Source: Phyllobates terribilis
Lineage: Eukaryota
Length of the DNA stretch: 64,000 bases
NCBI RefSeq assembly: GCF_046119375.1
Contig: NW_027362764.1
Location: forward strand, 383,594,001 to 383,658,000
Reading direction: 5' to 3'
The translations under genes and the position numbers were made by a program. The first letter of the stretch is position 1. Each line of letters starts with the position of its first letter. The notes below the pieces were generated by a model. That model was not told the origin of the DNA, did no database searches, and saw only the letters and a program-made list of their open reading frames with translations. Below are positions 431-53,769 of the stretch, one piece after another.

Positions 431-535
431 AGTTTTGGCCTAATACCACAGTTTGGCCACTCAGCTCTGCTCGGTTACCATCCATTGTTTTTTTGTGCAA
501 ACAACTCCAGAGTTGTGAATTAGTTAACCACCAAA

Positions 536-3500: not shown

Positions 3501-4225
3501 CTGGATGCGCAACACACATGAGTGCCTTCTTGCTGCACTACCTGCAACATGACCCTCGAATTGTGAGAATTAGAAATAATCCTGACTACTGGGTTGCCAC
3601 ACTGTTAGATCCCCGGTACAAAAGTAAATTTGCAGAAATTATTCCTGCCATAGAAAGGGATGCACGCATGCAGGAGTATCAGCAGAGACTGTTGCAGAAT
3701 CTTACATGTGCTTTTCCACAAAATACCAGTGGTGCACGTAGTGAATCTCACAGTTCCAACTTGCCAACCGTGGGACCGTCAAGTGTTCAGCACTCAAACC
3801 GTAACAGAACCACAGTATCTGCTGGTAACATCAATTTTGCGGAATCATTTCACCACTTTTTTAGCCCATCCTTTGCAAGGCCACAGGAGACAAGAAGTCT
3901 GACACATAGTCAACGCCTAGAGACGATGGTACAGGAGTATCTCCAAGTAAACATTGAAGCCACGACTGTGTCACTGGACCCTTGCTCTTTTTGGGCTTCC
4001 AATCTGGATAAATGGCCGGAGCTAGCCACTTACGCCTTGGAGATCTTGTCATGCCCCGCAGCCAGCGTTCTGTCTGAACGTGTGTTCAGCGCTGCTGGTG
4101 GTGTGCTGACAGATAAGCGCACGCGGCTCTCCACTGATAATGTAGACAGACTCACGTTCATAAAGATGAACAAATCATGGATCCGAAACGACTTTTCTAC
4201 CCCAGTGTCATCCTGGGGAGAGTAA
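536..4225 (+). CDS. hAT transposase with BED zinc finger, 1229 aa
   Basis: BED finger (AWAFF..CNICQQKL..RHMDMKH), TTDTWTS (D), VCDNA (D), CxxH in HVPCMAH, RWNS, LDPRYK, and the C-terminal dimerisation motif CPAASVLSERVFS (E). No internal stops. Confidence 0.95.
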   Translation: MSGKRPAAGGKGNRRVGKGKKGCVRGVGVKATVTSAEERPSSSQTKMSTSFSGQCDKIPFLRPRQSLQIPDEAQKQQVLQWISSAPLSGLSSTSTSTSQILQSSKVSPKSHLLPHSSQISSCPSEYEVEQMVESAELFTHTIAWESEVDSSASVNPDEEMICTDAQNLYESDPGPDAEGSDHNVDPHSQTVTPVGGDNEEDDDKTQIPDWSDNFSFLSGQEQVGSEDDGCDNTQGDDDEVGDPTYCQPTVSQEMRSAEEVEEDASDDEVRLRLPGQRRSTGSTSTTASSNTTLPLTTSRGGSSGRMGAKPCIAWAFFQIDKDDPTRVICNICQQKLSRGQKIHSLSTSCMNRHMDMKHKLQWEAQCATMRPSRPGQPPSAISCASAASSSSVTGGTAVTPVLGRRPATSLPATASVIGRSSFSLEVVTPAGVERCPTSIAPPLDQGNLTCPPASSSQTGSLPGTPLSTPSKHNSQPSVPQMWTSKRPFPPSHEKAKRLNFTICKLLATEMLPFRLVDTEDFRDLMSVAVPQYQMPSRHYFSKKGVPALHQHVAHNITASVCDRVHFTTDTWTSRHGQGRYMSLTGHWVTMVTAGQGAAVQVLPSPRVVRQSSLCQSSSTASASSTSSRSSTCTQSLSGHATSFLTAQKGSCTPPYYAGSRAQCHQAVFTLKCLGNVSHTAEELWSALENQFHEWLSPLDLKPGKAVCDNAANLGAAFRRGNVTHVPCMAHVLNLVVQQFLAHYPRLDGLLQRARSLCAHFRRSHPAAQRLTSLQKSLGLPLHRLKCDVPTRWNSTLHMLQRLWQHRQALVQYVLTYSLGQRDPEVGQITLEEWSQIRDLCSLLHSFEMATKMFSADYAIISMTIPVIYMLEHMLNRIRSQVVAQEEVEEVEEEELYAEGLTSARSRRSAAPRRQACEGGGDGFTRAHGSSQTSEEGAGAQEGVEDELMEDSSDEGDLDHISVVRGWGERTEEGIMIVTSPPTQQGLGAPGCATHMSAFLLHYLQHDPRIVRIRNNPDYWVATLLDPRYKSKFAEIIPAIERDARMQEYQQRLLQNLTCAFPQNTSGARSESHSSNLPTVGPSSVQHSNRNRTTVSAGNINFAESFHHFFSPSFARPQETRSLTHSQRLETMVQEYLQVNIEATTVSLDPCSFWASNLDKWPELATYALEILSCPAASVLSERVFSAAGGVLTDKRTRLSTDNVDRLTFIKMNKSWIRNDFSTPVSSWGE

Positions 4226-4273
4226 AAGCTTGATGATTGGTTAAAATCACCCTACCAACCGTTTTAAGCTTTC

Positions 4274-4530
4274 AAATTACTAATCATGTTTATCTGTATC
4301 TTGGCTGGAAAATAATTTGGGCTTTGCAGCACTGATTATATTAGGCCATCTATAATAAGCTCCACCAGATTTAAAATTACTAATCATGTTTATCTGTATC
4401 TTGACTGGAAAATAATTTGGGCTTTGTAGCAGTGTGCAGCACTGATCCTATTAGGCCATCTATACTAAAGCTTCACCAGATTTAAAATTAATAATAATTT
4501 TTAGCTGCATCTAGCCCGGAAAATAATTTT
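4274..4530 (+). repeat. ~100-111 bp degenerate tandem units related to the upstream 108-bp repeat
   Basis: AAATTACTAATCATGTTTATC at 4274 and 4374; shares the TTGGGCTT..TATTAGGCCATCTATACT..CTGCATCTA motifs with the 1-430 array. Confidence 0.8.
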
Positions 4531-4650
4531 GGGGCTCCGAGATGCGCAAGACACATAAGTGCCTTCTTGCTGCACTACCTGCAGCATGACCCTCATATTG
4601 TCAGAATTCGAAGTAATCATGACTACTGGGTTGCCACACTCTTAGATCCC
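4531..4650 (+). pseudogene. Degenerate duplicate fragment of the hAT transposase (LHYLQHDP..YWVATLLDP)
   Basis: Similar to ~3495-3612 of the intact ORF. A second fragment at ~6022-6092 matches ~3705-3772. Confidence 0.85.
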
Positions 4651-6021
4651 CCAAACTTTTCGATCAACCTTTTCATTTTAATAAAGACCAAAAAAATGGT
4701 CATTTTTGAAATTATAAGCATTAGCAGGTTGTTAGAAACTGAAATCAAACAGTTTTCAACTCAAAACTTTATTCTAGGTGATGTTACATTTTCACATAGG
4801 ACCCCTTGTTCGAAAGGAGCTTCTGAACTCTCTCGTCCATTGAATTTGTCAGGTTTTGGATGGTTTCTGCTTCAATTGTTTTGCATGAGGACAGAATACC
4901 CTCCCAGAGCTGTTGCTTAGATGTGAACTGCCTCCCGCCATCATAGACACTCCTTTTAATGATGCTCCAAAGGTTCTGAATGGGGTAGAGGTCAGGGGAG
5001 CATGGGGGTCACACCATAAGTTTGTCCCCTTTTATGCCCATATCAGCCAGAGATGCAGATGTTTTATGTGCAGCATGAGATGGTGCATTATCATGCAGAA
5101 AAATGATCTTGCTGTGAAATACACGGTTCTTCTTCTTGAACCATGGCAGGAAGTGCTGTTTGAGAAAATCCACATACATTATGGAGTTCATCTTTAGCGC
5201 CTTCAGGGATCCTAAAGGGGCCGACAATCTCTCTCCCCATGATTCCAGCCCAAAACATTACTCCACCTCCTCCTTGTTGGCGCTGTAGCCGTGTTTGCGT
5301 GGGGTGTCCATCAACCAGCCATCCTCCACTCCATCCATCTGGACCATCGAGCGCTGCACGGCACTCATCCGTGAACAAAACAGTTTTGAAATCAGTCTTC
5401 ATGTAATGTTTGGCCCACTGGAGCCGTTTCTGCTTGTGTGAAGTGGATAGAGGAGGTCGACAGGATGGCGTATGCACAGCTGCAAACCTCTGAAGGACCC
5501 TGCATCTTGTTGTTCGGGGGACGTTGGAGGCACAAGCAGCTTCAAAAACTTGTCTGCTGCTATGACAAGGCTTTTTTGCCGCTGCTCTTTCAACCTGACG
5601 TAATTGCCTGTAGGAAAGAGTCCTCAATTTGCCCTTATCAGCACGCACACGTGTGTACTGTGAATCAGCTACATACTTCGTGATTGCCAAGACACTTCAT
5701 CCTGATCATCGCACAATGTTGATTGTAGTCATGCCTTGACCTAAACACTCCACAATTTGTTGCTTCTCAGCAGCCGACACATCCTTTTTCTTTCCCATTT
5801 TGGCAGAAAATGTAGGCTGCTTAATAATGTGAGAGAGCCTTCTTAAGTAGTCTTGCCTTTCATTGGACACAGCTGCCAAACTAATTAGCACAGGTGTCTG
5901 CAATTGCTTACAGTGATATAAAGAGCCCTGACACACATCACCATCAATGAGTTTAACTGACAAACAAATTCTTCCCTTATCACTCCTAAACACTTTTTGC
6001 ATAATAATTTGGAACGCAGTG
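4651..6021 (-). mobile_element. Tc1-like DD37E (TRT-type) element, decayed, carried inside hAT copy A
   Basis: TIR GCATAATAATTTGGAACGCAGTG followed by TA at 6021-6023. Transposase remnants MGKKKDVS.., FTDEC, HDNAPSH..(37 aa)..PIQNLW with stops and frameshifts; the other end is truncated. Confidence 0.88.
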
Positions 6022-6092
6022 TACATGTGCTTTTCCACAAAACACCAGTGGTTCACGTAGTGAATCTTACAGTTCTAACTTGCCAACCGTGG

Positions 6093-7897
6093 TCTGTATG
6101 GAATTGTTCAATAAAGGGCCCAAAATTAAGATAACATAGATGGGAGAGGTCTCTATGAATAGGAATTCCTAAGTATTTGATACCCTGTGAGGGCCAGGCA
6201 AAGGGAAAGTTGGACTGGATGGAATCCTATATGGATTTAGGGAGGGAGACATCGAGGGCCTCAGACTTCGCTGCATTGATTTTAAAATTTTACCATGTAA
6301 CAAAGTGATCTATTTCAGCCATAACAGCAGGGATGGATATATGTGATTGAGTGATATATACTAGGACATCATCAGCAAATTGAGAGCACTTGTACTCGGT
6401 GCCTCCCACCTCAATCCACCTAATATTGGGGTTATGGCGAATTGATGAGAGCAGGTGCTCCGTCACTAGGATGTATAAGAGAGGGGACAGAGGACATCCC
6501 TGCCTTGTCCCATTGGTGATTGTGAAAGGTGATGAAAATGTTCTGACGCACCCCCTGGGCCTTGGGACACCCGGAGCCGGACCCTTTTTGGTGGATGCTG
6601 GTGGTTGTAGTCTTCGTGGCGGCGACCCGGTTCCGTGGCTCAGGGCGGTCAAACCAGTGGCGGAACTATTTATGTGGTTTTGATGTTTAAATGTCCGACT
6701 ACGCCACCCGTGGATTGCGGTCAGAGTGAACCGCCGCTACAGGGCAGACCGCTGAGGCTGGTGTTGTGGGTGCAGCAGAGCGTAGCATAACTCCCCACGG
6801 GAGGAGTATAGCCTCAGGGCAGTGTATGCGGAGGATGTGGGTGATGGTGCAGGGCAGCAGCAGTAACGACACGGAGTCAGTGATGCAGTCCAGGGCCTTT
6901 ACTCACAGTTCTTATTATCCAGACCACGTCTGCAGGTAACGGCTGCCCACGTCGTACTGTGCTCACCAGGTGAGGGGCTCAGACAACTCCCAGATAACTT
7001 TGGAGCACTTCACAGGACCCCCTTTGTGTGTCCTTTGTCTGGCCTTTCTTACCAACACTTCTGTCCGGCTGCCTCGGGCCTCCTCTTGGTAAACTTGGCA
7101 ACAGTTTCCCTGACCCTATGTGGTGCCTTCCTAGCGGGTGTAGCGAGGGGCTGCGCCACATAAAATGTCAGAGCCTCCGGTTTCTAGCTGAGGGTCGTTT
7201 CCTGCCTCCACTAGTTCGGGGACCGGTCTCCCCCTTTGGCCTGACCCCTCCACGCAGGTGGATTCGGGCGTGCGGTGGCGACTCGCCTGTCCGCACCCCT
7301 GGGATCCCTTCATTCCTCGTTCCTGGAGCCTTCTCCGCTCCTCTTCCTTCCTTCTCCCTCTTCCAGGCCTGGGCCTCTGTTACTAGGCCCGCCTCCGGAG
7401 CAGAGCTCATGCAGAGCCCCTGCTCCCTGCCACTTCTGCTCAGACTTCTCTGCACTGAACTAAGATGGTGCCCACCTTTTATACTCCCTTCTCAATGCAC
7501 CCAGGAACTGCTTCCTCCCTGCTCCTGCACTACAGGGTTCCCCTTCCTCAGTGTTCCCTCCCCCCACTCCAGCCAGGGACAGGGACTGTCGTGCCCATCT
7601 CAGGGGCATATTGGTCGCCCTGCCCCACGGCAATGTGGTGTAATGCATGCAGGTGTCGGGTCCTGATCCACACTCAATCCTTACCTGAGAGTGAGATGCA
7701 ATACGTCTGTAGCAACCGAGCCCTCAGGGTGCTACAGTTCCATTTATCTTCAGCCTAGGTGACGTATTGCGATACAGGGCCGTGATTTTGGCTATAAAAG
7801 GGTCCCCTAGACCCCTACCCCAAGCTTTTTAAGAGAATCATATATGGCGTGCCAGGAGACTCTATGGAATGCTTTCTCAGCATCCAACGAGAGTATC
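6093..7897 (-). mobile_element. L1-clade LINE reverse transcriptase fragment (split by a solo LTR) inside hAT copy A
   Basis: LDAEKAF, GTRQGCPLSPLL, FADD and IKYLGI motifs on the minus strand; the reading continues across the LTR insertion (..KINGT|FSSPFTITNG..). Confidence 0.88.
6544..7736 (-). mobile_element. Gypsy-type solo LTR inside the L1 fragment
   Basis: TG..CA termini (TGACGCACCCC..GGTGCTACA), 4-bp TSD GTTC on both sides; termini resemble the LTRs of the 14500-24600 element. Confidence 0.9.
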
Positions 7898-8000
7898 TAA
7901 TTACAAATTTTTAACTGCATCTAGCCCAGGAAATACTTTGTGCCTAGTAGCAGTGTCTGCTAGTCAGCGGATTATCCCGGCTGTTAAGCAAGCTACACCA

Positions 8001-8280
8001 CCTGTAGTTTAGACACTTAATTTTTTCAAAGGAAATGCTTCGGGACCATGGGATACTTAGTGAAGAGCATCAGGAGGCACCCCAAGGCATAGGGGCTGGG
8101 ACTGGCAGTAGGATGCCTTGCGGTGGACAGCCGAGCTCGATCCTTATAAAAGCTTTTTAACTGCAGCAGCTTTAGTGGACGCTACTGGAGCTGGAATTAC
8201 CGCGGCTGCTGGCATGAGACTTGCCCTCCAATAGATCCTTGTAAATGGATTTAAAGTGTATTCATTCAAATTAGAGAGAC
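8001..8280 (-). rRNA. Non-functional 18S rRNA gene fragment (~280 bp, helix-18/530-loop region into V4) inside hAT copy A
   Basis: The + strand reads AGCTTTTTAACTGCAGCAG..TGGAGCTGGAATTACCGCGGCTGCTGGCA..ACTTGCCCTCCAAT..GGATTTAAAGTG, the reverse complement of universally conserved 18S sequence (recalled, not BLASTed). Similarity extends to TTTGAAAAAATTA..GTGT..AAA..CAGG. Confidence 0.92.
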
Positions 8281-8674
8281 AATTTAAATTAAAAAGCTTA
8301 GAGCTGCCTCCACCACAGGGGGGCTCGCTCGACCCACCAGCGGACAGGCACCAGTATTGGGAGAGGGGGGCTGGCCGTCAGGGTTCACCGCGGCTCTGGC
8401 ACAAACCCGGCGACACGGAGGTGGCACGGGCAGGAGCGGACTGGCCGTGTCGGCTTCTCACTTTTTGGATTTTAGAAGGGCATGACATGCCTATATCTGT
8501 GTCTCCCCCTCCTTTTACTCCTCCACCTCTTTTATTTTCGCATGACTATATGTACTTGTCACTTTTCCATGTGTTAGTTATGTCTTCTGAGCAGTTTGTC
8601 AGCTTTTGGACACCTTTGAAGGTGTTTTCTATGTGTTTCTATGTGTTTTTGTTTGCCTGCCATTGGTTTTAACG

Positions 8675-8779
8675 GTGTTCGAAGGTGTTCGACGAACAGT
8701 TCGACGAACAGTTCGGCGAACACACGGGTGTTCGACGAACCGAACCGAACTCGAACACTACGGGGGTGGCTCAACACTA
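8675..8779 (+). repeat. hAT 3' subterminal GTTCG/CGAAC motif cluster and TIR
   Basis: Multiple GTTCGNCGAAC palindromes followed by the terminal GCTCAACACTA; typical of hAT transposase-binding subterminal repeats. Confidence 0.8.
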
Positions 8780-21391: not shown

Positions 21392-21396
21392 AAAGT

Positions 21397-24600: not shown

Positions 24601-24689
24601 TATGCAGGTCTCTCTCTCCCGCTGCCATGGGCTTCTCTGCAGTATTGGTTGTTTCTGCACCATTTTCTATCTCAGGCTTAGCCTTGAAA

Positions 24690-38592: not shown

Positions 38593-38853
38593 GTACCAAA
38601 AGGAAAAACTGTTTATGATCTCATTAAATTAGTATGAATATTTTTGGCCTTAATTTTAAAATATGTTTTGCACAAACACAATACAATCCCCTACAGAACA
38701 CCATGCCTATTGTAAACCATGGCAATGACAACATTTTGCTCAAGGGCTATTTGAATATGGAAAGCAATAAATACTGCAGAGTAGTATATAAATATAGTTT
38801 TCACAAACTATCAGACAGCTAACAGAAAAGAGCAAACAAAGGTAATTCTTTAA

Positions 38854-40290: not shown

Positions 40291-42011
40291 GAGCCACCAT
40301 ACCCAAGAAGTCAGGATATACTATCACTTTCTGATTGGCGTGGATTTCAGCTCTGGAACCCCCAATGAACTAGAGAATGAAAGGCATGCAGACCTGGTTT
40401 AGCTACCTTTTAGCTTTATTATTTGCACAGTGTGAAGGCAATATTCTGCAGTTTACTACATAGCTGGCCACTTGCAGGTCAAGATTAGTCAGGGTCTCAG
40501 AGGTTGGATTCTCATCAATCAGAAAATAATGACATTTCTTAGCGATAAATCCCTTTTAAATAAAGTTAATGGACCTACCCGTGGCCAGTTCTACCATAGT
40601 TACTCTTGTAAAATTGGACCTGAATCCTGACAGTAACTATATTACAATCCAGTATTTGAGTATCAATTGGACTCCGCAAACTCTGGTGTATTTTATAATT
40701 GCATTAAGCTAATCTTTGACACATAGTTTGGACAGTACTAACCAACTAGGTCAGCATGACGGCTTTTTTTAAACCCATATATGTCATAACTGTCATGTTT
40801 TGGCAATTTTCTATACACATACAGTATATATAGCTATGATGAAAAGTTTTGAGACTGACGCAAATTTTGATTTTCACAAAGTTTGTTGCGTCAGTGTTTT
40901 TATATCTTTTAGTCGGATGTTTCTGTGGTTACTGAAGTACAATTATAGATATTTCATAAGTTTTTACACTTTTATTGACAAGTATACCGTATATTCCGGC
41001 GTATAAGACGACCTGGTGTATAAGACGACCCCCCTACTTTCCTGTTAAAATATAGAGTTTAGGATATATTCACCGTATAAGACTACCCCTTTTCCAACGC
41101 ATACCAAACACCGGTAAAAATTAAAAAAAAACAGATTTGAATTTAACATGGTCCTTTTTTAATTTAAATTCTTATGACATGCAGGTATATAGCAGGAAAA
41201 CTGTCACTCATAAACATATTAAAATAGGGGGGACCCCACGTCATTTTTTGGGGGGGTCCCCCATTCTAATAGCTAGTAAAGGCTAGGTATTCAGCTGGGG
41301 GCTGATATTAGTAGCCTGGGAAGCTCCGTGGGTATTACCCTCTTCCCAGACTTCAAACATCTGCCCCAGCCGTCTGCTTAACCTCCGCTAGAGACTATAA
41401 TGATGGTGGATCCCATGCCAATTTTCTTTTTAAAAAATCCTTTATTTTAACACTAAATGACAATTGAGGGGTTAATAAAGATGCAGTCCCTAAATTATTA
41501 ATTTTGTAATTCATTTTTCCCAAAAATGTTGACGTGGGGCTTCGCCATATTTTTGTGTCCAGTCAGGTACAGCAGGCAGGAACGGGCTGCCCCCAACCAC
41601 CAGCTGCCTATTTGTACCTGGCCGGACACAACAATATAGGGAAGCCCTTTTTTTTTAAATTATTTCATGAAATAATTAAAAAAAAAAATACGTGGGGCTT
41701 CGCCCTATTTTTGTGTCCAGCCAGGTACAACTAGGCAGCTGGGGGCTGGAATCTGCAGCGCAGGGAGGCCCAAGCTTTCTGGGCCCCCCCCGCTGCAAAT
41801 TGCAGTCCGCAGCCACCCCGGAAAATGGCGCGTTCATAGAAGCGCCATCTTCTGGCGCTGTACCCAACTCATCCAGGACCCTGGTGCGGTGGCTCACTGG
41901 GTAATAAAGGGGTTAGGGCCAGCTTGGCATTATCAGCTGGCCCTAAGCCCGAAATTCATGGGGTCACGCCAATATTAGACATGACCACCATGAATTTCTA
42001 GTAAAGTAATT

Positions 42012-42788
42012 AAAAAAAACACAACACCCAGAATAAAGTCCTTTAATTGAAATAAACACACAATTCTTTATTGTTCTAAATTAAACCATACTTACCATCA
42101 CGCCCATTCCAGCTGAAGCCAACGATCTCCTGCAATAAAAGTAAAATAATAAAGCAACCTCATCCTTACCTCTCCATGGTTCCCAGGACCGGTCCAGCTC
42201 TGCTACATTCACATGACAGGCTGCACCGCAGCAGAACGCTGCCATTCAGCTTGCCATGCGGCAGACACTGAGAAGCGCAGGCATGCTTGTGCTCCTCAGT
42301 GTCTCTCTGTGACGGCATCCAGATGAGCCGAGATCATGTCCAATGAACTCGGCTCACCTCATGTACGTCACTGACAGCGTGGGAAAATTCTCCTGCTCCC
42401 CGCATGCGCAGTAGAAGTTTCCCACGCTGTCAGTGACGGACGTCCAGGAGGTGAGCTGAGTTCATTGTCGGCTCATCTGGATGCCGTCACAGTCAGACAC
42501 TGAGGAGCGCAAGCATGCCTGCGCTTCTCAGTGTCTGCGGGATGACAGGCTGGATGGCAGCTTTCTGCTGCGGTCCAGCCTGTCATCTCGATGTAGCAGA
42601 GATGGACCCGTCCTGGGAACCATGGAAAGGTAAGGATGAGGTTGGTTTATTATTTTTCTTTTATTGCAGGAGATCGTTGGCTTCAGCTGGAATGGGCGTG
42701 ATGGTAAGTATGGTTTAATTTAGAACAATAAAGAATTGTGTGTTTATTTCAATTAAAGGACTTTATTCTGGGTGTTTGTGTTTTTTTT
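42012..42788. repeat. ~780-bp long palindrome
   Basis: 42030-42170 is the near-perfect reverse complement of 42630-42775; symmetry continues inward to a centre near 42400. Confidence 0.9.
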
Positions 42789-43899
42789 AACTTTGACTAT
42801 GGGGTTAGTAATGGGGGTGTCTTATAGACGCCTCTCCATTACTAACCTGGGCTTGATGTCAGCTGGCATTATAAGCTGACATCAACCCCAGCCCTATTAC
42901 CCCAATGCCACCGCTACAGGGCAGTGGGAAGAGCGAGGCTAAGTGCCAGATTTGGCGCATCCTATGGATGCGCCATTTCTGGGGCGGCTGACGGCTGGTG
43001 TTTCTAGCCTGGGAGGGGGCCAATATTCATGTCACCCTTCCTGGGCTATTAATATCAGCCTCCAGCTGTCTGCCTAGCCTTTGCTAGCTATTAAAATAGG
43101 GGGGACCCCACGTCATTTTTTTGGGATCCCCCACTTTAATAGCTAGTAAAGGCTAGGTATTCAGCTGGGGGCTGATATTAGTAGCCTGGGAAGCTCCGTG
43201 GGTATTACCCCCTTCCCAGGCTTCAAACATTTGCCCCAGCTGTCTGCTTAACCTCCGCTAGAGACTAAAATTAAGGGGAACCCCACGCCAATTTTTTTTT
43301 TAATAAATCCGTTATTTTAACACTAGATGACAAGTACAGTAACCAGCACTGTCACTGTACTTCATATATATGTGACGGACATGTTTCTATCTATCTAATA
43401 GTGTTGAGCCACCCCCGTAGTGTTCGAGTTCGGTTCGGTTCGTCGAACACCCGTGTGTTCGCCGAACTGTTCGTCGAACTGTTCGTCGAACACCTTCGAA
43501 CACCGTTAAAACCAATGGCAGGCAAACAAAAACACATAGAAACACATAGAAAACACCTTCAAAGGTGTCCAAAAGCTGACAAACTGCTCAGAAGACACAA
43601 CTAACACATGGAAAAGTGACAAGTACATATAGTCATGCGAAAAGAAAAGAGGTGGAGGAGTAAAAGGAGGGGGAGACACAGATATAGGCATGTCATGCCC
43701 TTCTAAAATCCAAAAAGTGAGAAGCCGAGACGGCCAGTCCGCTCCTGCCCGTGCCACCTCCGTGTCGCCGGGTTTGTGCCAGAGCCGCGGTGAACCCTGA
43801 CGGCCAGCCCCCCTCTCCCAATACTGGTGCCTGTCCGCTGGTGGGTCGAGAGAGCCCCCCTGTGGTGGAGGCAGCTCTAAGCTTTTTAATTTAAATTGT

Positions 43900-44176
43900 C
43901 CCTCTAATTTGAATGAATACACTTTAAATCCATTTACAAGGATCTATTGGAGGGCAAGTCTCATGCCAGCAGCCGCGTAATTCCAGCTCCAGTAGCGTCC
44001 ACTAAAGCTGCTGCAGTTAAAAAGCTTTTATAAGGATCGAGCTCGGCTGTCCACCGCAAGGCATCCTAGTGCCAGTCCCAGCCCCTATGCCTTGGGGTGC
44101 CTCCTGATGCTCTTCACTAAGTATCCCGTGGTCCCGAAGCATTTCCTTTGAAAAAATTAAGTGTCCAAACTACAGG
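43900..44176 (+). rRNA. Non-functional 18S rRNA gene fragment inside hAT copy B
   Basis: ACTTTAAATC..GGATCTATTGGAGGGCAAGTC..TGCCAGCAGCCGCGTAATTCCAGCTCCA.TAGCGT..GCTGCAGTTAAAAAGCT..GATGCTCTT..CCCGAAGC..TTTGAAAAAATTA. One G of GCCGCGGTAA is lost relative to copy A. Confidence 0.92.
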
Positions 44177-44280
44177 TGGTGTAGCTTGCTTAACAGCCGG
44201 GATAATCCGCTGACTAGCAGACACTGCTACTAGGCACAAAGTATTTCCTGGGCTAGATGCAGTTAAAAATTTGTAAGTAG

Positions 44281-46104
44281 ATACTCTCGTTGGATGCTGA
44301 GAAAGCATTCCATAGAGTCTCCTGGCACGCCATATATGATTCTCTTAAAAAGCTTGGGGTAGGGGTCTAGGGGACCCTTTTATAGCCAAAATCACGGCCC
44401 TGTATCACAATACGTCACCTAGGCTGAAGATAAATGGAACTGTAGCACCGAGGGCTCGGTTGCTACAGACGTATTGCACCTCACCCAGAGGTGTGATATC
44501 TCACTCTCAGATAAGGATGGAGTGTGGATCAGGACCCGACACCTGCATGCATTACACCACATTGCCGTGGGGCAGGGCGACCAATATGCCCCTGAGATGG
44601 GCACGACAGTCCCTGTCCCTGGCTGGAGTGGGGGGAGGGAACACTGAGGAAGGGGAACCCTGCAGTGCAGGAGCAGGGAGGAAGCAGTTCCTGGGTGCAT
44701 TGAGAAGGGAGTATAAAAGGTGGGCACCATCTTAGTTCAGTGCAGAGAAGTCTGAGCAGAAGTGGCAGGGAGCAGGGGCTCTGCATGAGCTCTGCTCCGG
44801 AGGCGGGCCTAGTAACAGAGGCCCAGGCCTGCAAGAGGGAGAAGGAAGGAAGAGGAGCGGAGAAGGCTCCAGGAACGAGGAATGAAGGGATCCCAGGGGT
44901 GCGGACGGGCGAGTCGCCACCGCACGCCCGAATCCACCTGCGTGGAGGGGTCAGGCCAAAGGGGGAGACCGGTCCCCGAACTAGTGGAGGCAGGAAACGA
45001 CCCTCAGCTAGAAACCGGAGGCTCTGACATTTTATGTGGCGCAGCCCCTTGCTCCACCCGCTAGGAAGGCACCACATAGGGTCAGGGAAACTGGCGCCAA
45101 GTTTACCAAGAGGAGGCCCGAGGCAGCCGGACAGAAGTGTTGGTAAGAAAGGCCAGATAAAGGACACACAAAGGGGGTCCTGTGAAGCGCTCCAAAGTTA
45201 TCTGGGAGTTGTCTGAGCCCCTCACCTGGTGAGCACAGTACGACGTGGGCAGCCGTTACCTGCAGACGTGGTCTGGATAATAAGAACTGTGAGTAAAGGC
45301 CCTGAACTGCATCACTGACTCCGTGTCGTTACTGCTGCTGCCCTGCACCATCACCCCCATCCTCCGCATACACTGCCCTGAGGCTATACTCCTCCCGTGG
45401 GGAGTTATGCTATGCTCTGCTGCACCCACAACACCAGCCTTAGCGGTCTGCCCTGTAGCGGCGGTTCACTCTGACCGCAATCCACGGGTGGCGTAGTCGG
45501 ACATTTAAACATCAAAACCACATAAATAGTTCCGCCACTGGTTTGACCGCCCTGAGCCACGGAACCGGATCGCCGCCACGAAGACTACAACCACCAGCAT
45601 CCACCAAAAAGGGTCCGGCTCCGGGTGTCCCAAGGCCCAGGGGGTGCGTCAGAACATTTTCATCACCTTTCACAATCACCAATGGGACAAGGCAGGGATG
45701 TCCTCTGTCCCCTCTCTTATACATCCTAGTGACGGAGCACCTGCTCTCATCAATTCGCCATAACCCCAATATTAGGTGGATTGAGGTGGGAGGCACCGAG
45801 TACAAGTGCTCTCTATTTGCTGATGATGTCCTAGTATATATCACTCAATCACATATATCCATCCCTGCTGTTATGGCTGAAATAGATCACTTTGTTACAT
45901 GGTAAAATTTTAAAATCAATGCAGCGAAGTCTGAGGCCCTCGATGTCTCCCTCCCTAAATCCATATAGGATTCCATCCAGTCCAACTTTCCCTTTGCCTG
46001 GCCCTCACAGGGTATCAAATACTTAGGAATTCCTATTCATAGAGACCTCTCCCATCTATGTTATCTTAATTTTGGGCCCTTTATTGAACAATTCCATACA
46101 GACC
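44281..46104 (+). mobile_element. L1 RT fragment (split by a solo LTR) inside hAT copy B
   Basis: Same motifs as 6093-7897, in the opposite orientation. Confidence 0.88.
44441..45651 (+). mobile_element. Gypsy-type solo LTR inside hAT copy B
   Basis: TGTAGCACC..GGGGTGCGTCA, TSD GAAC; same insertion point as in copy A. Confidence 0.9.
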
Positions 46105-46173
46105 ACGGTTGGCAAGTTAGAACTGTAAGATTCACTACGTGAACCACTGGTGTTTTGTGGAAAAGCACATGTA

Positions 46174-47548
46174 CACCGCGTTCCAAATTATTATGCAAAA
46201 AGTGTTTAGGAGTGATAAGGGAAGAATTTGTTTGTTTGTCAGTTAAACTCATTGATGGTGATGTGTGTCAGGGCTCTTTATATCACTGTAAGCAATTGCA
46301 GACACCTGTGCTAATTAGTTTGGCAGGTGTCCAATGAAAGGCAAGACTACTTAAGAAGGCTCTCTCACATTATTAAGCAGCCTACATTTTCTGCCAAAAT
46401 GGGAAAGAAAAAGGATGTGTCGGCTGCTGAGAAGCAACAAATTGTGGAGTGTTTAGGTCAAGGCATGACTACAATCAACATTGTGCGATGATCAGGATGA
46501 AGTGTCTTAGCAATCAAGAAGTATGTAGCTGATTCACAGTACACACGTGTGCGTGCTGATAAGGGCAAATTGAGGACTCTTTCCTACAGGCAATTACGTC
46601 AGGTTGAAAGAGCAGCGGCAAAAAAGCCTTGTCATAGCAGCAGACAAGTTTTTGAAGCTGCTTGTGCCTCCAACGTCCCCCGAACAACAAGATGCAGGGT
46701 CCTTCAGAGGTTTGCAGCTGTGCATACGCCATCCTGTCGACCTCCTCTATCCACTTCACACAAGCAGAAACGGCTCCAGTGGGCCAAACATTACATGAAG
46801 ACTGATTTCAAAACTGTTTTGTTCACGGATGAGTGCCGTGCAGCGCTCGATGGTCCAGATGAATGGAGTGGAGGATGGCTGGTTGATGGACACCCCACGC
46901 AAACACGGCTACAGCGCCAACAAGGAGGAGGTGGAGTAATGTTTTGGGCTGGAATCATGGGGAGAGAGATTGTCGGCCCCTTTAGGATCCCTGAAGGCGC
47001 TAAAGATGAACTCCATAATGTATGTGGATTTTCTCAAACAGCACTTCCTGCCATGGTTCAAGAAGAAGAACCGTGTATTTCACAGCAAGATCATTTTTCT
47101 GCATGATAATGCACCATCTCATGCTGCACATAAAACATCTGCATCTCTGGCTGATATGGGCATAAAAGGGGACAAACTTATGGTGTGACCCCCATGCTCC
47201 CCTGACCTCTACCCCATTCAGAACCTTTGGAGCATCATTAAAAGGAGTGTCTATGATGGCGGGAGGCAGTTCACATCTAAGCAACAGCTCTGGGAGGGTA
47301 TTCTGTCCTCATGCAAAACAATTGAAGCAGAAACCATCCAAAACCTGACAAATTCAATGGACGAGAGAGAATTCAGAAGCTCCTTTCGAACAAGGGGTCC
47401 TATGTGAAAATGTAACATCACCTAGAATAAAGTTTTGAGTTGAAAACTGTTTGATTTCAGTTTCTAACAACCTGCTAATGCTTATAATTTCAAAAATGAC
47501 CATTTTTTTGGTCTTTATTAAAATGAAAAGGTTGATCGAAAAGTTTGG
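46174..47548 (+). mobile_element. DD37E (TRT-type) Tc1-like remnant inside hAT copy B
   Basis: TA followed by CACCGCGTTCCAAATTATTATGC TIR; disrupted transposase. Confidence 0.88.
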
Positions 47549-47873
47549 GGGATCTAAGAGTGTGGCAACCCAGTAGTCATGATTACTTCGAATTCTGACA
47601 ATATGAGGGTCATGCTGCAGGTAGTGCAGCAAGAAGGCACTTATGTGTCTTGCGCATCTCGGAGCCCCAAAATTATTTTCCGGGCTAGATGCAGCTAAAA
47701 ATTATTATTAATTTTAAATCTGGTGAAGCTTTAGTATAGATGGCCTAATAGGATCAGTGCTGCACACTGCTACAAAGCCCAAATTATTTTCCAGTCAAGA
47801 TACAGATAAACATGATTAGTAATTTGAAAGCTTAAAACGGTTGGTAGGGTGATTTTAACCAATCATCAAGCTT

Positions 47874-50800
47874 TTACTCTCCCCAGGATGACACAGGGGT
47901 AGAAAAGTCGTTTCGGATCCATGATTTGTTCATCTTTATGAACGTGAGTCTGTCTACATTATCAGTGGAGAGCCGCGTGCGCTTATCTGTCAGCACACCA
48001 CCAGCAGCGCTGAACACACGTTCAGACAGAACGCTGGCTGCGGGGCATGACAAGATCTCCAAGGCGTAAGTGGCTAGCTCCGGCCATTTATCCAGATTGG
48101 AAGCCCAAAAAGAGCAAGGGTCCAGTGACACAGTCGTGGCTTCAATGTTTACTTGGAGATACTCCTGTACCATCATCTCTAGGCGTTGACTATGTGTCAG
48201 ACTTCTTGTCTCCTGTGGCCTTGCAAAGGATGGGCTAAAAAAGTGGTGAAATGATTCCGCAAAATTGATGTTACCAGCAGATACTGTGGTTCTGTTACGG
48301 TTTGAGTGCTGAACACTTGACGGTCCCACGGTTGGCAAGTTGGAACTGTGAGATTCACTACGTGCACCACTGGTATTTTGTGGAAAAGCACATGTAAGAT
48401 TCTGCAACAGTCTCTGCTGATACTCCTGCATGCGTGCATCCCTTTCTATGGCAGGAATAATTTCTGCAAATTTACTTTTGTACCGGGGATCTAACAGTGT
48501 GGCAACCCAGTAGTCAGGATTATTTCTAATTCTCACAATTCGAGGGTCATGTTGCAGGTAGTGCAGCAAGAAGGCACTCATGTGTGTTGCGCATCCAGGA
48601 GCACCAAGTCCCTGTTGTGTTGGTGGCGAGGTAACAATCATGCTTTCTTCCTCTGTCCTCTCCCCCCAACCTCGCACAACAGAAATGTGATCAAGGTCTC
48701 CCTCATCTGATGAGTCTTCCATCAGTTCGTCCTCCACTTCTTCCTGGGCTCCTGCACCTTCCTCACTAGTTTGGCTGCTACCATGCGCCCTGGTTAAACC
48801 ATCTCCCCCACCCTCACATGCCTGCCGCCTTGGTGCTGCCGACCGTCTGGACCTTGCAGATGTTAGCCCTTCCGCATACAACTCCTCCTCCTCTACTTCC
48901 TCCACCTCCTCTTGTGCCACCACCTGACTCCGAATTCTGTTTAACATGTGCTCCAGCATGTAAATCACCGGAATAGTCATGCTGATAATGGCATCGTCAG
49001 CACTAAACATCTTCGTCGCCATTTCAAAACTGTGCAGAAGGGTGCATAGGTCCCTGATCTGAGACCACTCCTCCAGCGTGATTTGCCCCACCTCTGAATC
49101 TCGTTGGCCCAGGCTATACGTCAGAACGTATTGCACCAGGGCTTGTCGGTGCTGCCACAGTCGCTGCAACATGTGCAGAGTTGAATTCCACCGGGTAGGC
49201 ACATCGCATTTTAGCCGGTGAAGTGGCAGGCCCAACGACTTCTGTAGAGATGTAAGTCGCTGAGCTGCGGGATGCGAACGGCGGAAGTGAGCACACAGCG
49301 ACCGTGCCCTCTGCAGAAGGCCATCTAGTCTGGGATAGTGGGCTAAAAATTGCTGGACAACCAGGTTCAACACGTGAGCCATACAAGGCACGTGTGTGAC
49401 ATTGCCCCGGCGAAGGGCCGCACCCAGGTTTGCAGCATTGTCGCACACGGCCTTCCCTGGTTTCAGGTCCAGTGGAGACAACCATTCATGAAATTGGTTC
49501 TCCAGAGCTGACCACAACTCCTCAGCTGTGTGACTCACATTTCCCAGACATTTCAATGTAAAAACCGCCTGATGACGTTGAGCCCTACTGCCAGCATAGT
49601 AAGGAGGTGTGCAGGATCCCTTCTGCGCAGTTAGAAAGCTTGTGGCATGACCAGACAGGCTTTGGGTGCAGGTGGAAGACCGAGAGGAGGTTGAGGAGGC
49701 AGAAGCAGTGGAGGAAAAATGACATAAAGAGGATTGACGCACAACTCGTGGGGACGGCAAGACTTGGACAGCAGCCCCTTGTCCTGCTGTCACCATAGTT
49801 ACCCAGTGCCCAGTCAGCGACATGTAACGCCCCTGTCCATGCCTACTCGTCCAAGTGTCTGTGGTGAAATGCACCCTGTCACACACAGAGTTTCTCAAAG
49901 AAGCGGTGATGTTGTGTGCGACATGCTGGTGGAGCGCAGGCACACCTTTCTTTGAGAAGTAGTGCCGACTGGGCATCTGGTACTGGGGCACTGCGACGGA
50001 CATAAGGTCTCGAAAATCCTCTGTGTCCACCAGGCGGAAAGGCAGCATTTCTGTAGCCAAGAGCTTGCAGATGGTGAAATTCAACCTCTTAGCTTTCTCA
50101 TGGCTAGGAGGAAATGGTCTTTTACTTGTCCACATCTGAGGGACCGAGGGCTGGCTATTGTGCTTAGACGGGGTTGATAAGGGTGTCCCCAGCAAACTGC
50201 CGGTCTGTGAGGAAGATGCAGGCGGACATGTTAGGTTGCCTTGATCCAAAGGTGGTGCTATCGATGTCGGACAGCGCTCAAGACCAGCTGGTGTTACCAC
50301 CTCCAAAGAAAATGATGACCTGCCAATCACGCTGGCTGTTGCGGGTAAAGAGGTGGCAGGTCTGCGCCCCAAAACAGGTGTGACTGCTGTCCCCCCAGTC
50401 ACAGAGGATGAAGAGGCCGCGGATGCACAAGATATGGCAGACGGTGGTTGGCCCGGCCGGCTGGACCGCATTGTAGCACACTGAGCTTCCGACTGCAACT
50501 TATGCTTCATGTCCATGTGCCGGTTCATGCATGAAGTACTCAAACTATGTATTTTTTGGCCTCTACTTAGCTTTTGCTGACAAATGTTACAGATAACACG
50601 AGTTGGGTCATCTTTATCGATCTGAAAAAATGCCCAGGCTATGCAAGGCTTAGCACCCATGCGACCTGAAGAGCCACCACGACTTGTGGTGAGAGGTAGA
50701 GTTGTGTTTGAGGATGCAGTTGTTGACGTGCTTCCAGTACTACGTCTCTGTCCAGGAAGGCGCAACCTGACCTCGTCGTCACTAGCATCTTCCTCCACCT

Positions 50801-51554
50801 CCTCTGCTGACCTCATCTCTTGGCTGACTGTGGGTTGACAGTAAGTGGGATCTCCGACCTCATCATCATCACCCTGTGCGTTATCACACCCGTCGTCCTC
50901 AGAGCCAACCTGTTCCTGCCCTGACAAAAAACTAAAGTTGTCGCTCCAATCAGGTATTTGAGTCTTATCATCGTCTTCCTCATTGTCTCCACCAACAGGA
51001 GTTACAGTTTGGGAATGAGGGTCTACATTATGGTCAGAACCTTCTGCGTCTGGTCCTGGATCCGACTCATAAAGATTCTGGGCATCAGTGCAGATCATTT
51101 CCTCGTCTGGATTCACAGAAGCGCTGGAGTCGACCTCTGATTCCCAGGCTATAGTATGAGTAAACAGCTCTGCAGACTCAACCATCTGTTCTACCTCATA
51201 CTCAGACGGGCAGCTGGAGATTTGGGAGCTGTGAGGAAGCAAGTGCGATTTGGGTGACACCTTTGAGGACTGGAGTATTTGTGATGTTGAAGTTGATGTG
51301 GAGGAGAGCCCACTTAAAGGAGCACTTGATATCCGTTGAAGCACCTGCTGTTTTTGTGCCTCATCTGGAATTTGTAGCGATTGGCGTGGCCGTAAGAAAG
51401 GGATCTTATCACATTGTCCGCTAAAAGAAGTAGACATTTTAGTTTGGCTGGAAGATGGTCTTTCTTCTGCACCTACCCCACGGACACAACCTTTTTTCCC
51501 CTTCCCAACACGCCTATTCCCCTTTCCACCAGCAGCAGGCCTTTTTCCACTCAT
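47874..51554 (-). CDS. hAT transposase with BED zinc finger, 1226 aa
   Basis: Near-identical to 536-4225; D-D-E, CxxH and RWNS all present; no stops. Confidence 0.95.
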   Translation of the reverse strand: MSGKRPAAGGKGNRRVGKGKKGCVRGVGAEERPSSSQTKMSTSFSGQCDKIPFLRPRQSLQIPDEAQKQQVLQRISSAPLSGLSSTSTSTSQILQSSKVSPKSHLLPHSSQISSCPSEYEVEQMVESAELFTHTIAWESEVDSSASVNPDEEMICTDAQNLYESDPGPDAEGSDHNVDPHSQTVTPVGGDNEEDDDKTQIPDWSDNFSFLSGQEQVGSEDDGCDNAQGDDDEVGDPTYCQPTVSQEMRSAEEVEEDASDDEVRLRLPGQRRSTGSTSTTASSNTTLPLTTSRGGSSGRMGAKPCIAWAFFQIDKDDPTRVICNICQQKLSRGQKIHSLSTSCMNRHMDMKHKLQSEAQCATMRSSRPGQPPSAISCASAASSSSVTGGTAVTPVLGRRPATSLPATASVIGRSSFSLEVVTPAGLERCPTSIAPPLDQGNLTCPPASSSQTGSLLGTPLSTPSKHNSQPSVPQMWTSKRPFPPSHEKAKRLNFTICKLLATEMLPFRLVDTEDFRDLMSVAVPQYQMPSRHYFSKKGVPALHQHVAHNITASLRNSVCDRVHFTTDTWTSRHGQGRYMSLTGHWVTMVTAGQGAAVQVLPSPRVVRQSSLCHFSSTASASSTSSRSSTCTQSLSGHATSFLTAQKGSCTPPYYAGSRAQRHQAVFTLKCLGNVSHTAEELWSALENQFHEWLSPLDLKPGKAVCDNAANLGAALRRGNVTHVPCMAHVLNLVVQQFLAHYPRLDGLLQRARSLCAHFRRSHPAAQRLTSLQKSLGLPLHRLKCDVPTRWNSTLHMLQRLWQHRQALVQYVLTYSLGQRDSEVGQITLEEWSQIRDLCTLLHSFEMATKMFSADDAIISMTIPVIYMLEHMLNRIRSQVVAQEEVEEVEEEELYAEGLTSARSRRSAAPRRQACEGGGDGLTRAHGSSQTSEEGAGAQEEVEDELMEDSSDEGDLDHISVVRGWGERTEEESMIVTSPPTQQGLGAPGCATHMSAFLLHYLQHDPRIVRIRNNPDYWVATLLDPRYKSKFAEIIPAIERDARMQEYQQRLLQNLTCAFPQNTSGARSESHSSNLPTVGPSSVQHSNRNRTTVSAGNINFAESFHHFFSPSFARPQETRSLTHSQRLEMMVQEYLQVNIEATTVSLDPCSFWASNLDKWPELATYALEILSCPAASVLSERVFSAAGGVLTDKRTRLSTDNVDRLTFIKMNKSWIRNDFSTPVSSWGE

Positions 51555-51667
51555 TTTGGTGGTTAACTAATTCACAACTCTGGAGTTGTTTGCACAAAAA
51601 AACAATGGATGGTAACCGAGCAGAGCTGAGTGGCCAAACTGTGGTATTAGGCCAAAACTATTGGCTG

Positions 51668-52176
51668 GGTTAGAGGCAGAAAAAAATTATTTTTAATTTG
51701 CAACCTGATGGAGGTCAGTATAGATGGACTAATAGACCAAGTCCCACACACCGCTAGAAGCCCAAATATTTTTTCAGAGCTAGATGCAGAAAATTTTTTT
51801 ATTCAATTTGCAACCTGATGGAGGTCAGTATAGATGGACTAATAGACCAAGTCCCACACACTGCTAGAAGCCCAAATATTTTTTCAGAGCTAGATGCAGA
51901 AAAAAATTATTTTTAATTTGCAACCTGATGGAGGTCAGTATAGATGGACTAATAGACCAAGTCCCACACACTGCTAGAAGCCCAAATATTTTTTCAGAGC
52001 TAGATGCAGAAAAAAATTATTTTTAATTTGCAACCTGATGGAGGTCAGTATAGATGGACTAATAGACCAAGTCCCACACACCGCTAGAAGCCCAAATATT
52101 TTTTCAGAGCTAGATGCAGAAAAAAATTATATTCAGTTTGCAACCTGATGGAGGTCAGTATAGATGGACTAATAGA
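51668..52176 (-). repeat. ~108-bp tandem array (~4.7 units) upstream of the copy B transposase
   Basis: GCAACCTGATGGAGGTCAGTATAGATGGACTAATAGA recurs five times. Confidence 0.95.
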
Positions 52177-52644
52177 ATGATGCTATGCCCAAAAGATTTT
52201 ACTTCACTAGGTGCAGTAAAAAAATTGGTATTCTATACACAGGTGGTATATCTTGCAACACAGATAGGCTACTCCACTGACTAACACACTCTGCAATAGG
52301 CCAAAAAGGATTAGCTTTGCTAGATTCAGCCAAATGCTGTGAAAAAAACTTGCACAGCACTGGCACAGACCTGCCTGGCAAAAACTGATAGGAACTGATG
52401 TAACCTAGTCCTGAAAAGGACTCCAATTACAATTAGTCTTTACTCCCACAATCTATCTATTTAAGAGCACAGACCTGCCTGATAAAAGTCGTAGGAAATG
52501 CTGTAACCTAGTCCTTAAAAGGACTGCAATCACAACTATTCCCTACTCCCAAGCTATCTGTATATTTGTGCGAAAATTGGCTTGAAATTAACAAGGTATA
52601 TCGCACACAGCAACAGCGGTGCCGTCTAACACGCAGCTGCAGCA

Positions 52645-52720
52645 GTGAGAAAATGGTGGCGACGGGGAAAATGGCTTGGTCTTATAGGGCAAGGACATGT
52701 GACATACACTGCCAATCACA
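52645..52720 (-). promoter_or_regulatory. Candidate Pol II promoter of the hAT transposase
   Basis: Minus-strand order ATTGGC (reverse CCAAT), GTCACATG (E-box-like), CTATAAG (TATA-like), GCCATTTT (YY1-like). Motif match only. Confidence 0.35.
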
Positions 52721-53769
52721 CATGCCCTTGCTTGTGTGAAAAAAAGCACTTCGCTCCGTGTGTGCGCTGCTGATAGGCTGACAGATTGCACCTCCCCACT
52801 GCAAATGCGGGAAAGAGAAAAAAAAATGGAGATCTTCATTGTTCCTGCAGAGATCCATCCCCTGCCCCTCCCCCCGCCCCGCTGTACACTCAAACTGCGT
52901 ATTAACATTAATTTTCATCATTACTGAGAAAAAATCCAGTTATGATTTTGGTGCACGAACAGTTATCGAACATAACCTCGAACAGCCGAATTTTTCTCAA
53001 ATTGTTCGTGTTCGCCGACCGGCTCGAACACCGCCCAAAACAGCTCGAATTTGAGATTGGCGAACAGTTCGAGTAGAACAACGCTCATCTCTACTATCTA
53101 ATCTATGTGTGATGCTCTATCTTTCTGTTATAAATTGTCGGGTACAGATGCTGAATTGCCGGCCGGCTTTTTTAAAGAGACGGTGCATGAAAACACTATT
53201 ATTTGTTTTAATAAATCCTTTACACTAAATGACAAGTACAGTAAGCAATACTGTCACTGTGCTTCTTATATATGTGACTGACATGTTTCTATCTATCTAA
53301 TCTATGTGTGATGCTCTATTCTTTCTATTCTAAATTGTCGGGTGCCGGCTTATGCCGCTGCTGAATTGCCGGCTTTTCATATATTGTCACAGAAGCGATG
53401 CGAACTTCCCAGCTCCGGACACAGCGCAGCGCTTCTGTGACAAGTGAAAGCTGTCGGCACAGAAGCCCTGCGCTGTGTCCGGAGCTGGGAATACGCAGCG
53501 ATGTGTCAGTTTCAGCACAGAAGCGCTGACTGTCTGGACCTACCGCCGCCGTATTTTAACTCCCTCCACCTTATATTAACTCCGACATGGCAGGGATACG
53601 GCCACGGCAGCTTATTAACACCCCCAGAGTATCCCCGCATGTCAATTTCTGAAAGTTCAAAAGCATTACCGGCGTATAAGACGACCCCAGACTAGACAGA
53701 AGATTTTTCAGTCTTCAAAAGTCGTCTTATACGCCGGAATATACGGTAAATTAACAAGCTTATGCAGAG

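What the first reader, a model, noticed from the sequence alone, without database searches (positions are those of the whole stretch)
43399..53093. A 9.7-kb composite hAT that transposes while hauling four classes of foreign DNA
Seen: copies A and B share identical nested insertions at identical junctions (DD37E Tc1 remnant, L1 RT fragment, Gypsy solo LTR with GTTC/GAAC TSD, 18S piece). Their flanks differ, and copy B has its own 8-bp TSD. The whole composite was therefore mobilised after the cargo was acquired. Inference: an autonomous, Pack-type vertebrate hAT that gives dead retroelements, an LTR promoter and rDNA a second life as passengers. Nesting here is four deep (pogo-like > hAT > L1 > LTR).
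Basis: partly seen in the sequence, partly recalled or inferred. Interest (0 to 1): 0.75.

Follow-up and report, generated by a model that had tools for sequence, protein, structure and literature searches.

The report
Cargo-loaded frog hAT transposon family
A young, highly repeated jumping gene of a poison-frog-type genome copies itself together with broken pieces of three other mobile elements and a decayed scrap of a ribosomal RNA gene, much like a cargo-laden element already described in lizards.

Summary
The anatomy is real. Copy B (43399-53093) is a 9,695-bp hAT with 11-bp TIRs, an 8-bp TSD and an intact 1,226-aa BED/DDE transposase. A 3.4-kb block (L1 piece, Gypsy solo LTR, DD37E Tc1 remnant) and an 18S-derived segment lie in its 3' arm. 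Inverted copy A shares all junctions, and homology stops exactly at the TIR. Public runs support a high-copy family: in one run, near-consensus contigs cross most cargo junctions at about 0.85 of transposase depth. So the loaded unit is what amplified; copy number was not measured. They suggest the arm came from a dead sister copy, joined to a live transposase by one template switch (inferred). 'Pack-type' fits only the 18S piece, and no 'second life' of the cargo is shown. The kind is known: Anolis hobo_AC are autonomous 9-15-kb hATs carrying class 1 and 2 fragments and recombining between copies. Not found in my searches: an 18S segment inside a DNA transposon.

The parts
43399..53093 (-). 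Copy B: complete loaded hAT, 9,695 bp (strand given is that of the transposase)
43391..43398 (.). Left TSD CTATCTAA (fits nTnnnnAn)
53094..53101 (.). Right TSD CTATCTAA
43399..43520 (.). 11-bp TIR plus subterminal region rich in TTCG/CGAA (8+5 motifs); candidate BED-domain sites (inferred)
52940..53093 (.). Subterminal region (3+7 motifs) and 11-bp TIR at the transposase 5' side
43879..44200 (+). Decayed 18S rRNA segment, about model positions 480-830, antisense to the transposase; end approximate
44208..44271 (.). Array-like unit of the 3' arm; 44238-44271 is 88% like 47670-47703
44272..44440 (+). L1 RT piece, left part (start between 44272 and 44285), ending in GAAC
44441..45651 (+). Gypsy-type solo LTR, 1,211 bp, TG..CA, GAAC TSD, TATAAA at 44712; would fire antisense towards the transposase (inferred from its orientation against the window's Gypsy)
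   Evidence: LTR-less joint skips 1,215 bp
45652..46102 (+). L1 RT piece, right part; no 3' end and no poly(A)
46103..46173 (-). Decayed duplicate of transposase 48326-48396 (67 of 71 identical), ending in the TA target of the Tc1
46174..47547 (+). Tc1 remnant with DD37E spacing, frameshifts and stops; 5' TIR present, 3' TIR lost
47548..47670 (-). Decayed duplicate of transposase 48485-48607 (110 of 123 identical); keeps 2 residues shared with Ranitomeya and Anomaloglossus relatives that the live ORF has changed
47666..47873 (.). 3' array of ~110-bp units (one more unit in A); junction to the duplicate near 47666-47670
47874..51554 (-). Intact hAT transposase, 1,226 aa: zf-BED, D565, D704, C723xxH726, W788, E1177 (numbered without the Met), C-terminal dimerisation domain
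51671..52176 (.). 5' tandem array, 110 bp x 4.6 (108-bp units in A)
1..8779 (+). Copy A, inverted to B, cut by the window start; intact transposase at 524-4225; flank GTTTTAAC at 8780-8787
40987..53746 (.). Host element of B: non-coding TIR element with 26-bp perfect TIR and TA TSD (pogo/Tc2-like label recalled)
53202..53380 (+). Paralogous empty site inside the host element with a single CTATCTAA

Best explanation
An ordinary cut-and-paste hAT of Ac/hobo type whose current amplifying lineage is loaded. The transposase needs only the ends (established for hATs), so 3.4 kb of junk between the stop codon and the 3' end rides along. Origin (inferred): a sister copy X died after an L1 (5'-truncated) inserted in its 3' array and a Tc1 inserted at a TA inside its transposase gene. 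Two deletions then removed the L1 3' part with the end of X's gene, and the Tc1 3' TIR with 88 bp of gene. One template switch or recombination near 47666-47670 joined X's arm to a live copy's array and gene. The solo LTR is the innermost addition. The 18S segment is the oldest passenger, already decayed in the arm. The hybrid then became master of a recent burst with subfamilies. The cargo is most likely neutral. Odds: loaded unit transposes about 0.9; dead-sister hybrid origin about 0.6.
For: Shown: TIRs, TSD and empty paralog; A/B homology ends at the TIR; backbone 37 of 4,874 versus cargo 22 of 3,360 substitutions, p=0.69. Both ORFs are open, with only in-frame indels of 21 and 12 bp. In run X11 (not flagged as a source) single contigs cross arm/L1/LTR (43651-45137), LTR/L1/duplicate (45474-46172) and Tc1/duplicate (46144-47614). 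Length-weighted depth is 55.5 for 4 cargo pieces and 65.7 for 3 transposase pieces, and B differs from the 8 listed pieces at 33 of 7,239 bases. Run X1 laid 312,932 of 25,650,960 contigs, with even depth over cargo and gene. Eight runs of 6 studies hold 0.80-0.82 of the words, one with only 14 million letters, as expected if a family consensus assembles at low coverage (inference; 0.87 predicted from substitutions alone). For the hybrid: the duplicates are collinear, in the element's own orientation, 17 of 194 bases from the live gene, and keep ancestral R and S shared with P0019 and P0020. The Tc1 sits at the TA of 48395-48396 of the gene copy. Inter-element recombination is reported for hobo_AC (PMC3014272, passages).
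Against: A's second TSD is unverified. Copy number and distinct insertion sites were not counted: one search listed only the best loose ends (811 not shown), and the tool warns that summed contig depth is no copy number. The 47670 junction was not bridged by any listed piece, and the 46174 junction had only 30 bases on one side. Contigs with a different sequence left of 47666 exist (155 in X1, 3 in X11), so unloaded or differently built forms occur. Divergence along A/B is uneven (p=0.005; LTR 16 of 1,193, other cargo 6 of 2,167; 5' array 32 of 419), which suggests exchange between copies. pN/pS between A and B is 0.65, not different from neutral (p=0.27), so selection on the ORF is not shown. 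No donor copy X was seen. The junction microhomology is short and imperfect.
Confidence: 0.6

Rival explanations
1. Stepwise loading inside the live lineage: an old internal duplication of 282 bp of the transposase into the 3' array, then L1, Tc1 and LTR insertions and deletions in successive masters. The loaded unit still transposes.
For: An LTR-less L1 joint exists in X1 (12 contigs) and X17 (1 contig), and X17 has no depth over 44445-45600, which fits a stepwise order at least for the LTR. Neutral decay alone could raise the duplicates' divergence.
Against: Needs five or more events, each in a copy that stays a master. The collinear order arm-L1-gene piece-Tc1-gene piece is what a single decayed copy gives. 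The LTR-less joint may come from free L1 copies: the X17 contig reaches at most about 31 bases into the hAT arm, with 8 gap letters.
Confidence: 0.25
2. Cargo spread among already inserted hAT copies by gene conversion or gap repair, not by transposition of the loaded unit.
For: Uneven A/B divergence. Of 8 sites where X11 differs from B, A matches X11 at 5 (43729-44832) and B at 3 (45865-46092).
Against: Cargo as a whole is no younger than the backbone (p=0.69). The 5/3 pattern also fits nested subfamilies without recombination. Conversion is unlikely to load most copies (depth ratio 0.85).
Confidence: 0.07
3. The loaded element moves, but in trans, using another hAT's transposase; its own ORF is merely young enough to look intact.
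For: pN/pS is not distinguishable from neutral. Several other frog hAT clades exist.
Against: All catalytic motifs are intact in both copies. The ORF stayed open while its duplicates and the Tc1 decayed by 4-9%. X17 contigs cover most of the gene at 94-97%.
Confidence: 0.05
4. A and B are an inverted segmental duplication or an assembly artefact.
For: Two copies 34.6 kb apart; A's far end is unseen.
Against: Homology stops at the TIR, flanks are unrelated, B has a TSD and an empty paralog, and the junctions occur in an independent run.
Confidence: 0.03

Closest known systems
hobo_AC of Anolis carolinensis (Novick et al., PMC3014272; passages and Table 1 rows seen)
   Same: [quoted passage not shown]
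   Different: There the cargo is Chapaev, RTE, CR1 and SINE pieces in seven structures. Here it is L1, solo LTR, Tc1, own-family pieces and 18S, with one structure apparently dominant. 'rDNA' and 'ribosomal' occur 0 times in that paper. Sequence kinship was not tested.
Pack-TIRs, e.g. Pack-hAT-N8_XT of Xenopus tropicalis (Tan et al., PMC8277862; passages)
   Same: TIR element with foreign filler, amplified with distinct TSDs; template switching with microhomology proposed; frogs are among the few animals with multicopy cases.
   Different: Defined by non-TE filler (median 224 bp) with a parent at 90% or more; only 4 multicopy cases were found in the reference genomes. Here most filler is TE-derived and the element keeps a full transposase.
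rDNA-bearing TEs: Pokey/mPok (IGS), Cassandra, Ajax and SINE3 (5S), SINE28 (28S) (review PMC10946416; section 11 read whole)
   Same: A mobile element carries an rDNA-derived module.
   Different: The review's Table 2 lists no 18S-derived module and no hAT. The piece here is a decayed internal segment with no known promoter.
Xenopus Tx1 inserted in Tx1D (one passage in PMC4494074)
   Same: Frog DNA transposon carrying a non-LTR retroelement.
   Different: There it is targeted insertion into a non-autonomous piggyBac; here a truncated L1 piece is inherited as cargo.
Frog 'ZBED4/6-like' hAT transposases in NCBI annotation
   Same: Same domains; nearest are Ranitomeya and Anomaloglossus fragments (71-89%), a 3-row clade with 100/100 support.
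   Different: No full-length protein above 46% identity among the 18 hits.

Membership tests
hAT superfamily | 8-bp TSD | tested here: met
   CTATCTAA on both sides of B plus empty paralog; A has one side only
hAT superfamily | Short TIRs | tested here: met
   11 bp, 9 of 11 matching
hAT superfamily | Transposase with BED finger, DDE, CxxH, conserved W and C-terminal dimerisation domain | tested here: met
   PF02892 E 4e-10 and PF05699 E 2e-14; D565, D704, C723, H726, W788 and E1177 invariant in 13 of 13 aligned rows; roles of these residues recalled
hAT, Ac group | Target preference nTnnnnAn (bioRxiv 2022.09.16.508221, passage) | tested here: met
   2 of 2 sites fit (CTATCTAA, GTTTTAAC); the MITE site GCTGTAAG fits only at position 7; small sample
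hAT, Ac group | Transposase groups with Ac/hobo/Tol2 rather than Buster or Tip | not tested
   The tree held no named reference transposases
Autonomous hAT | Own transposase mobilises own ends | not testable with these tools
   ORF intact; pN/pS 0.65, p=0.27
hobo_AC-like loaded autonomous hAT (works like) | Intact transposase, 9-15 kb, TE-derived filler shared by young copies | tested here: met
   9,695 bp, 35% cargo block, 0.46% from X11 pieces
hobo_AC (membership) | Sequence kinship with hobo_AC | not tested
   No hobo_AC sequence was available from a tool; its TIR TAGGCTTGMTC differs
Pack-TIR | Filler is non-TE host sequence | tested here: not met
   About 3.4 kb of filler is TE-derived; only the ~320-bp 18S piece is host gene
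Pack-TIR | Parent copy at 90% or more identity | tested here: inconclusive
   Host 18S not available; 9 of about 77 core positions differ from the Rfam consensus (counted by eye)
Pack-TIR | Several copies with distinct TSDs | tested here: inconclusive
   Two different flanks in the window; high copy inferred; sites not counted
TRT / DD37E Tc1 (PMC5630946, passages) | 37 residues between second D and E; TA target | tested here: met
   37 counted, E position now Q; TA at 46172-46173
TRT / DD37E Tc1 | Phylogenetic placement with TRT rather than ITmD37E | not tested
   No tree built
Gypsy solo LTR | TG..CA ends, 4-bp TSD, likeness to the LTR of a full element | tested here: met
   GAAC TSD; 73% over 241 bp to LTRs of the window's Gypsy, which shares TGT..GCGTCA ends
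L1 clade | RT most like L1 ORF2p | tested here: met
   Pfam RVT_1; human L1 ORF2p E 4.6e-14; Tx1 and other clades were not compared

The most novel reading that the evidence does not exclude
The cargo is not neutral. The LTR, added last and pointing antisense to the transposase, or the arm rescued from a dead sister, gave this variant an advantage and let it replace its LTR-less precursor. The family has thereby seeded hundreds to thousands of 18S-like, L1, Tc1 and LTR-promoter copies through a frog genome: a DNA transposon dispersing 18S sequence, a case absent from the review table I read.
Probability: 0.12. Interest if true: 0.72.

Novelty: new member of a known kind. Interest (0 to 1): 0.4.

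Why it matters
It is a second vertebrate lineage in which an autonomous hAT amplifies several kilobases of other elements' debris, and its junctions record how: probably by joining a dead copy's arm to a live gene. In practice, repeat annotation would count such copies as recent Tc1, L1, Gypsy and rDNA activity. That matters for poison-frog genomes, where young Gypsy, Tc1 and hAT repeats fill gigabases (PMC6278860, PMC11152451; passages). A naturally loaded, intact hAT is also a candidate for large-cargo vectors, as was proposed for hobo_AC.

Tried and rejected
Own-genome search: no genome held, so A's second TSD and copy counts are open. Is the 18S piece ancestral in frog hAT arms? Unresolved. 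Of 55 metagenome loci, three look like frog hATs (L001, L002, L007), but L001 and L002 end within about 270 bases of the stop codon and L007 ends mid-gene. Genome contigs gave 0 of 21 candidates. A 20-base arm pattern gave 1 hit in genome contigs, only a 28-base match and treated as chance, and 0 in viral contigs. In X17 the 18S bin is only partly covered, and the tool drops human-like records, so that hole proves nothing. Expression: no RNA holder listed. RNA run X21 laid 1 of 12,734,080 reads and none on the flanking high-copy element; the library may not be frog RNA, so I count it neither for nor against. The 18S piece folds no better than shuffles (z -1.42, 11 of 100 as good). Selection test not significant. 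Local hopping of A and B: not needed in a high-copy family; B is about as far from A (0.7%) as two random young copies would be (inference). Organisms B-E are coded and may be non-frog samples holding frog DNA, so I do not claim presence in other frog species. Earlier findings: four look-ups, nothing. Literature: ten searches found no description of this family or of 18S inside a hAT. Repbase, Dfam and subscription papers were not searchable, and I read no supplements; repeat libraries in those of the poison-frog genome papers could hold this element. PMC9827724 (passages) was not relevant.
Full report
Setting. The window is repeat-rich vertebrate DNA. The nearest named relatives of its transposase are fragments from Ranitomeya and Anomaloglossus (71-89%; 100/100 clade among 21 rows), so a poison-frog-type genome is inferred. 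No whole genome is held.

Observation. Copy B spans 43399-53093 with TIRs TAGTGTTGAGC and TAGAGATGAGC and the TSD CTATCTAA on both sides. A nearby paralogue of the host element shows the empty site with one copy of the 8-mer (148 of 168 bases identical). Copy A (1-8779) is inverted, shares every junction and ends at the same TIR base. Its flank is unrelated (27% over 300 bp), and its far end is outside the window. B sits in a non-coding element with a perfect 26-bp TIR and TA duplication (40987-53746), so the four-deep nesting is real for B.

Transposase. Both copies have one open frame with BED finger and hAT dimerisation domain. The D, D, E, CxxH and W positions are invariant in 13 of 13 aligned rows. 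A and B differ by 9 synonymous and 19 non-synonymous changes, pN/pS 0.65, p=0.27, so selection is not shown.

Cargo. All cargo lies 3' of the gene and on the opposite strand. In order: an 18S segment; an array unit; an L1 RT piece split by a 1,211-bp solo LTR with GAAC TSD; 71 bp of duplicated transposase; a Tc1 with DD37E spacing and no 3' TIR; 123 bp of duplicated transposase; then the 3' array. In the 18S core 9 of about 77 positions differ from the Rfam consensus, six at positions the model marks as conserved (counted by eye). The piece is therefore a long-decayed scrap, older than the burst (inference).

Did the loaded unit move? Backbone and cargo are equally diverged between A and B (37 of 4,874 and 22 of 3,360, p=0.69). 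Of 24 runs listed, 16 hold half or more of the element's words; 8 of these are possible sources, and 8, from 6 studies, hold 0.80-0.82. I laid 4 of the 24. In X11, 106 contigs were laid and 8 listed. Single contigs cross arm/L1, L1/LTR, LTR/L1, L1/duplicate and Tc1/duplicate. The duplicate/Tc1 junction has only 30 bases on one side, and the duplicate/array junction is not bridged by a listed piece. Cargo pieces average depth 55.5 and gene pieces 65.7, a ratio of 0.85, and B differs from these pieces at 33 of 7,239 bases. In X1, a possible source, 312,932 contigs were laid, with summed depth of 1.6-4.3 million in every bin. The tool warns that this is no copy number. My rough arithmetic (divide by 31, assume 30-100x coverage) gives some hundreds to two thousand copies and is only an order of magnitude. 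Both alleles are common in X1 at many sites, which points to subfamilies. Against a simple picture: divergence is uneven along A/B (p=0.005), the 5' arrays differ at 32 of 419 positions while each is homogeneous within its copy, contigs with another sequence left of 47666 exist (155 in X1, 3 in X11), and a deleted derivative joins 44226 to 51132 (3 contigs).

How it was loaded (inferred). The two transposase duplicates are collinear, in the element's orientation, and 17 of 194 bases from the live gene. They retain two residues shared with the Ranitomeya and Anomaloglossus relatives where the live gene has changed. The Tc1 sits at a TA inside that gene copy, which would have killed it. The simplest history is a dead sister copy that gathered an L1 and a Tc1 and lost parts by deletion, and whose arm was then joined to a live array and gene near 47666-47670. 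Stepwise loading in the live lineage remains possible. The LTR is the innermost layer. An LTR-less L1 joint is seen in X1 (12 contigs, depth 6,115) and in X17, which covers the gene at 94-97% and has no depth over 44445-45600. These joints may equally come from free L1 copies.

Function of cargo. None shown. The single RNA run was uninformative (see Tried and rejected). Neutral hitch-hiking is the default. The LTR's orientation, antisense to the gene, keeps a regulatory role open.

Comparison. Anolis hobo_AC is the direct precedent: autonomous hATs of 9-15 kb with class 1 and 2 fragments, 11-bp TIRs, 1.12% divergence, 290 copies and inter-element recombination (PMC3014272, passages). Pack-TIRs require non-TE filler (PMC8277862, passages), which only the 18S piece meets. 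A 2024 review lists IGS, 5S and 28S modules in TEs but no 18S (PMC10946416, section 11 read). Ten literature searches found no account of this family; Repbase, Dfam and supplements were not seen.

Verdict. Observation confirmed, interpretation partly supported. A new, apparently dominant and young member of a known kind, with two features worth follow-up: the probable dead-sister hybrid origin and the 18S segment. Interest 0.4.

Noticed in passing
window 55922-56222: 301-bp palindromic hAT MITE with near-identical 11-bp TIRs to the family and TSD GCTGTAAG, inside another element (54577-56397); a likely non-autonomous partner.
   Followed up: partly
window 14500-24601: Gypsy element on the minus strand with three LTRs, CATA TSD, gag (351 aa) and pol (1,405 aa) frames; 14500-16840 repeats 21397-23737 at 99.66%. 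Described only.
   Followed up: partly
window 45489-45500: A 12-base word inside the cargo LTR matches the word next to the Gypsy 5' LTR at 21380, where a primer-binding site is expected; unexplained.
   Followed up: no
window 51671-52176 and 1-419: 5' arrays have 110-bp units in B and 108-bp units in A; each is homogeneous within its copy but they are 7.6% apart, ten times the rest.
   Followed up: partly
window 43715-43878: GC-rich stretch just before the 18S piece, origin unknown; X17 contigs cover part of it.
   Followed up: no
window 26676-28331: Apparently intact Tc1-type element with a 358-aa ORF and ~214-bp TIRs at 95%.
   Followed up: no
window 58019-59065: Second, broken Tc1 on the minus strand, 67% like the cargo Tc1 over 390 bp.
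   Followed up: no
window 37309-38594 and 13208-13522: Further LTRs related to the cargo LTR (67-83% in patches).
   Followed up: no
window 32152-34435 and 61217-62533: Two more non-LTR RT remnants (RVT_1 hits); clades not determined.
   Followed up: no
window 41682-43122: Long imperfect palindrome (78%) inside the host element of B.
   Followed up: no
proteins P0008 and P0013: Frog gene models (Ranitomeya, Leptodactylus) join PF01352 (KRAB, name recalled) to a related hAT transposase; possible fusion genes or model artefacts.
   Followed up: no
protein P0030: A 39%-identical hAT piece annotated in Protopolystoma xenopodis (a frog parasite, recalled); host contamination or transfer.
   Followed up: no
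window 44226 to 51132: Joint in run X1 (3 contigs, 13 filler letters) marks an internally deleted derivative lacking the cargo and most of the gene.
   Followed up: no
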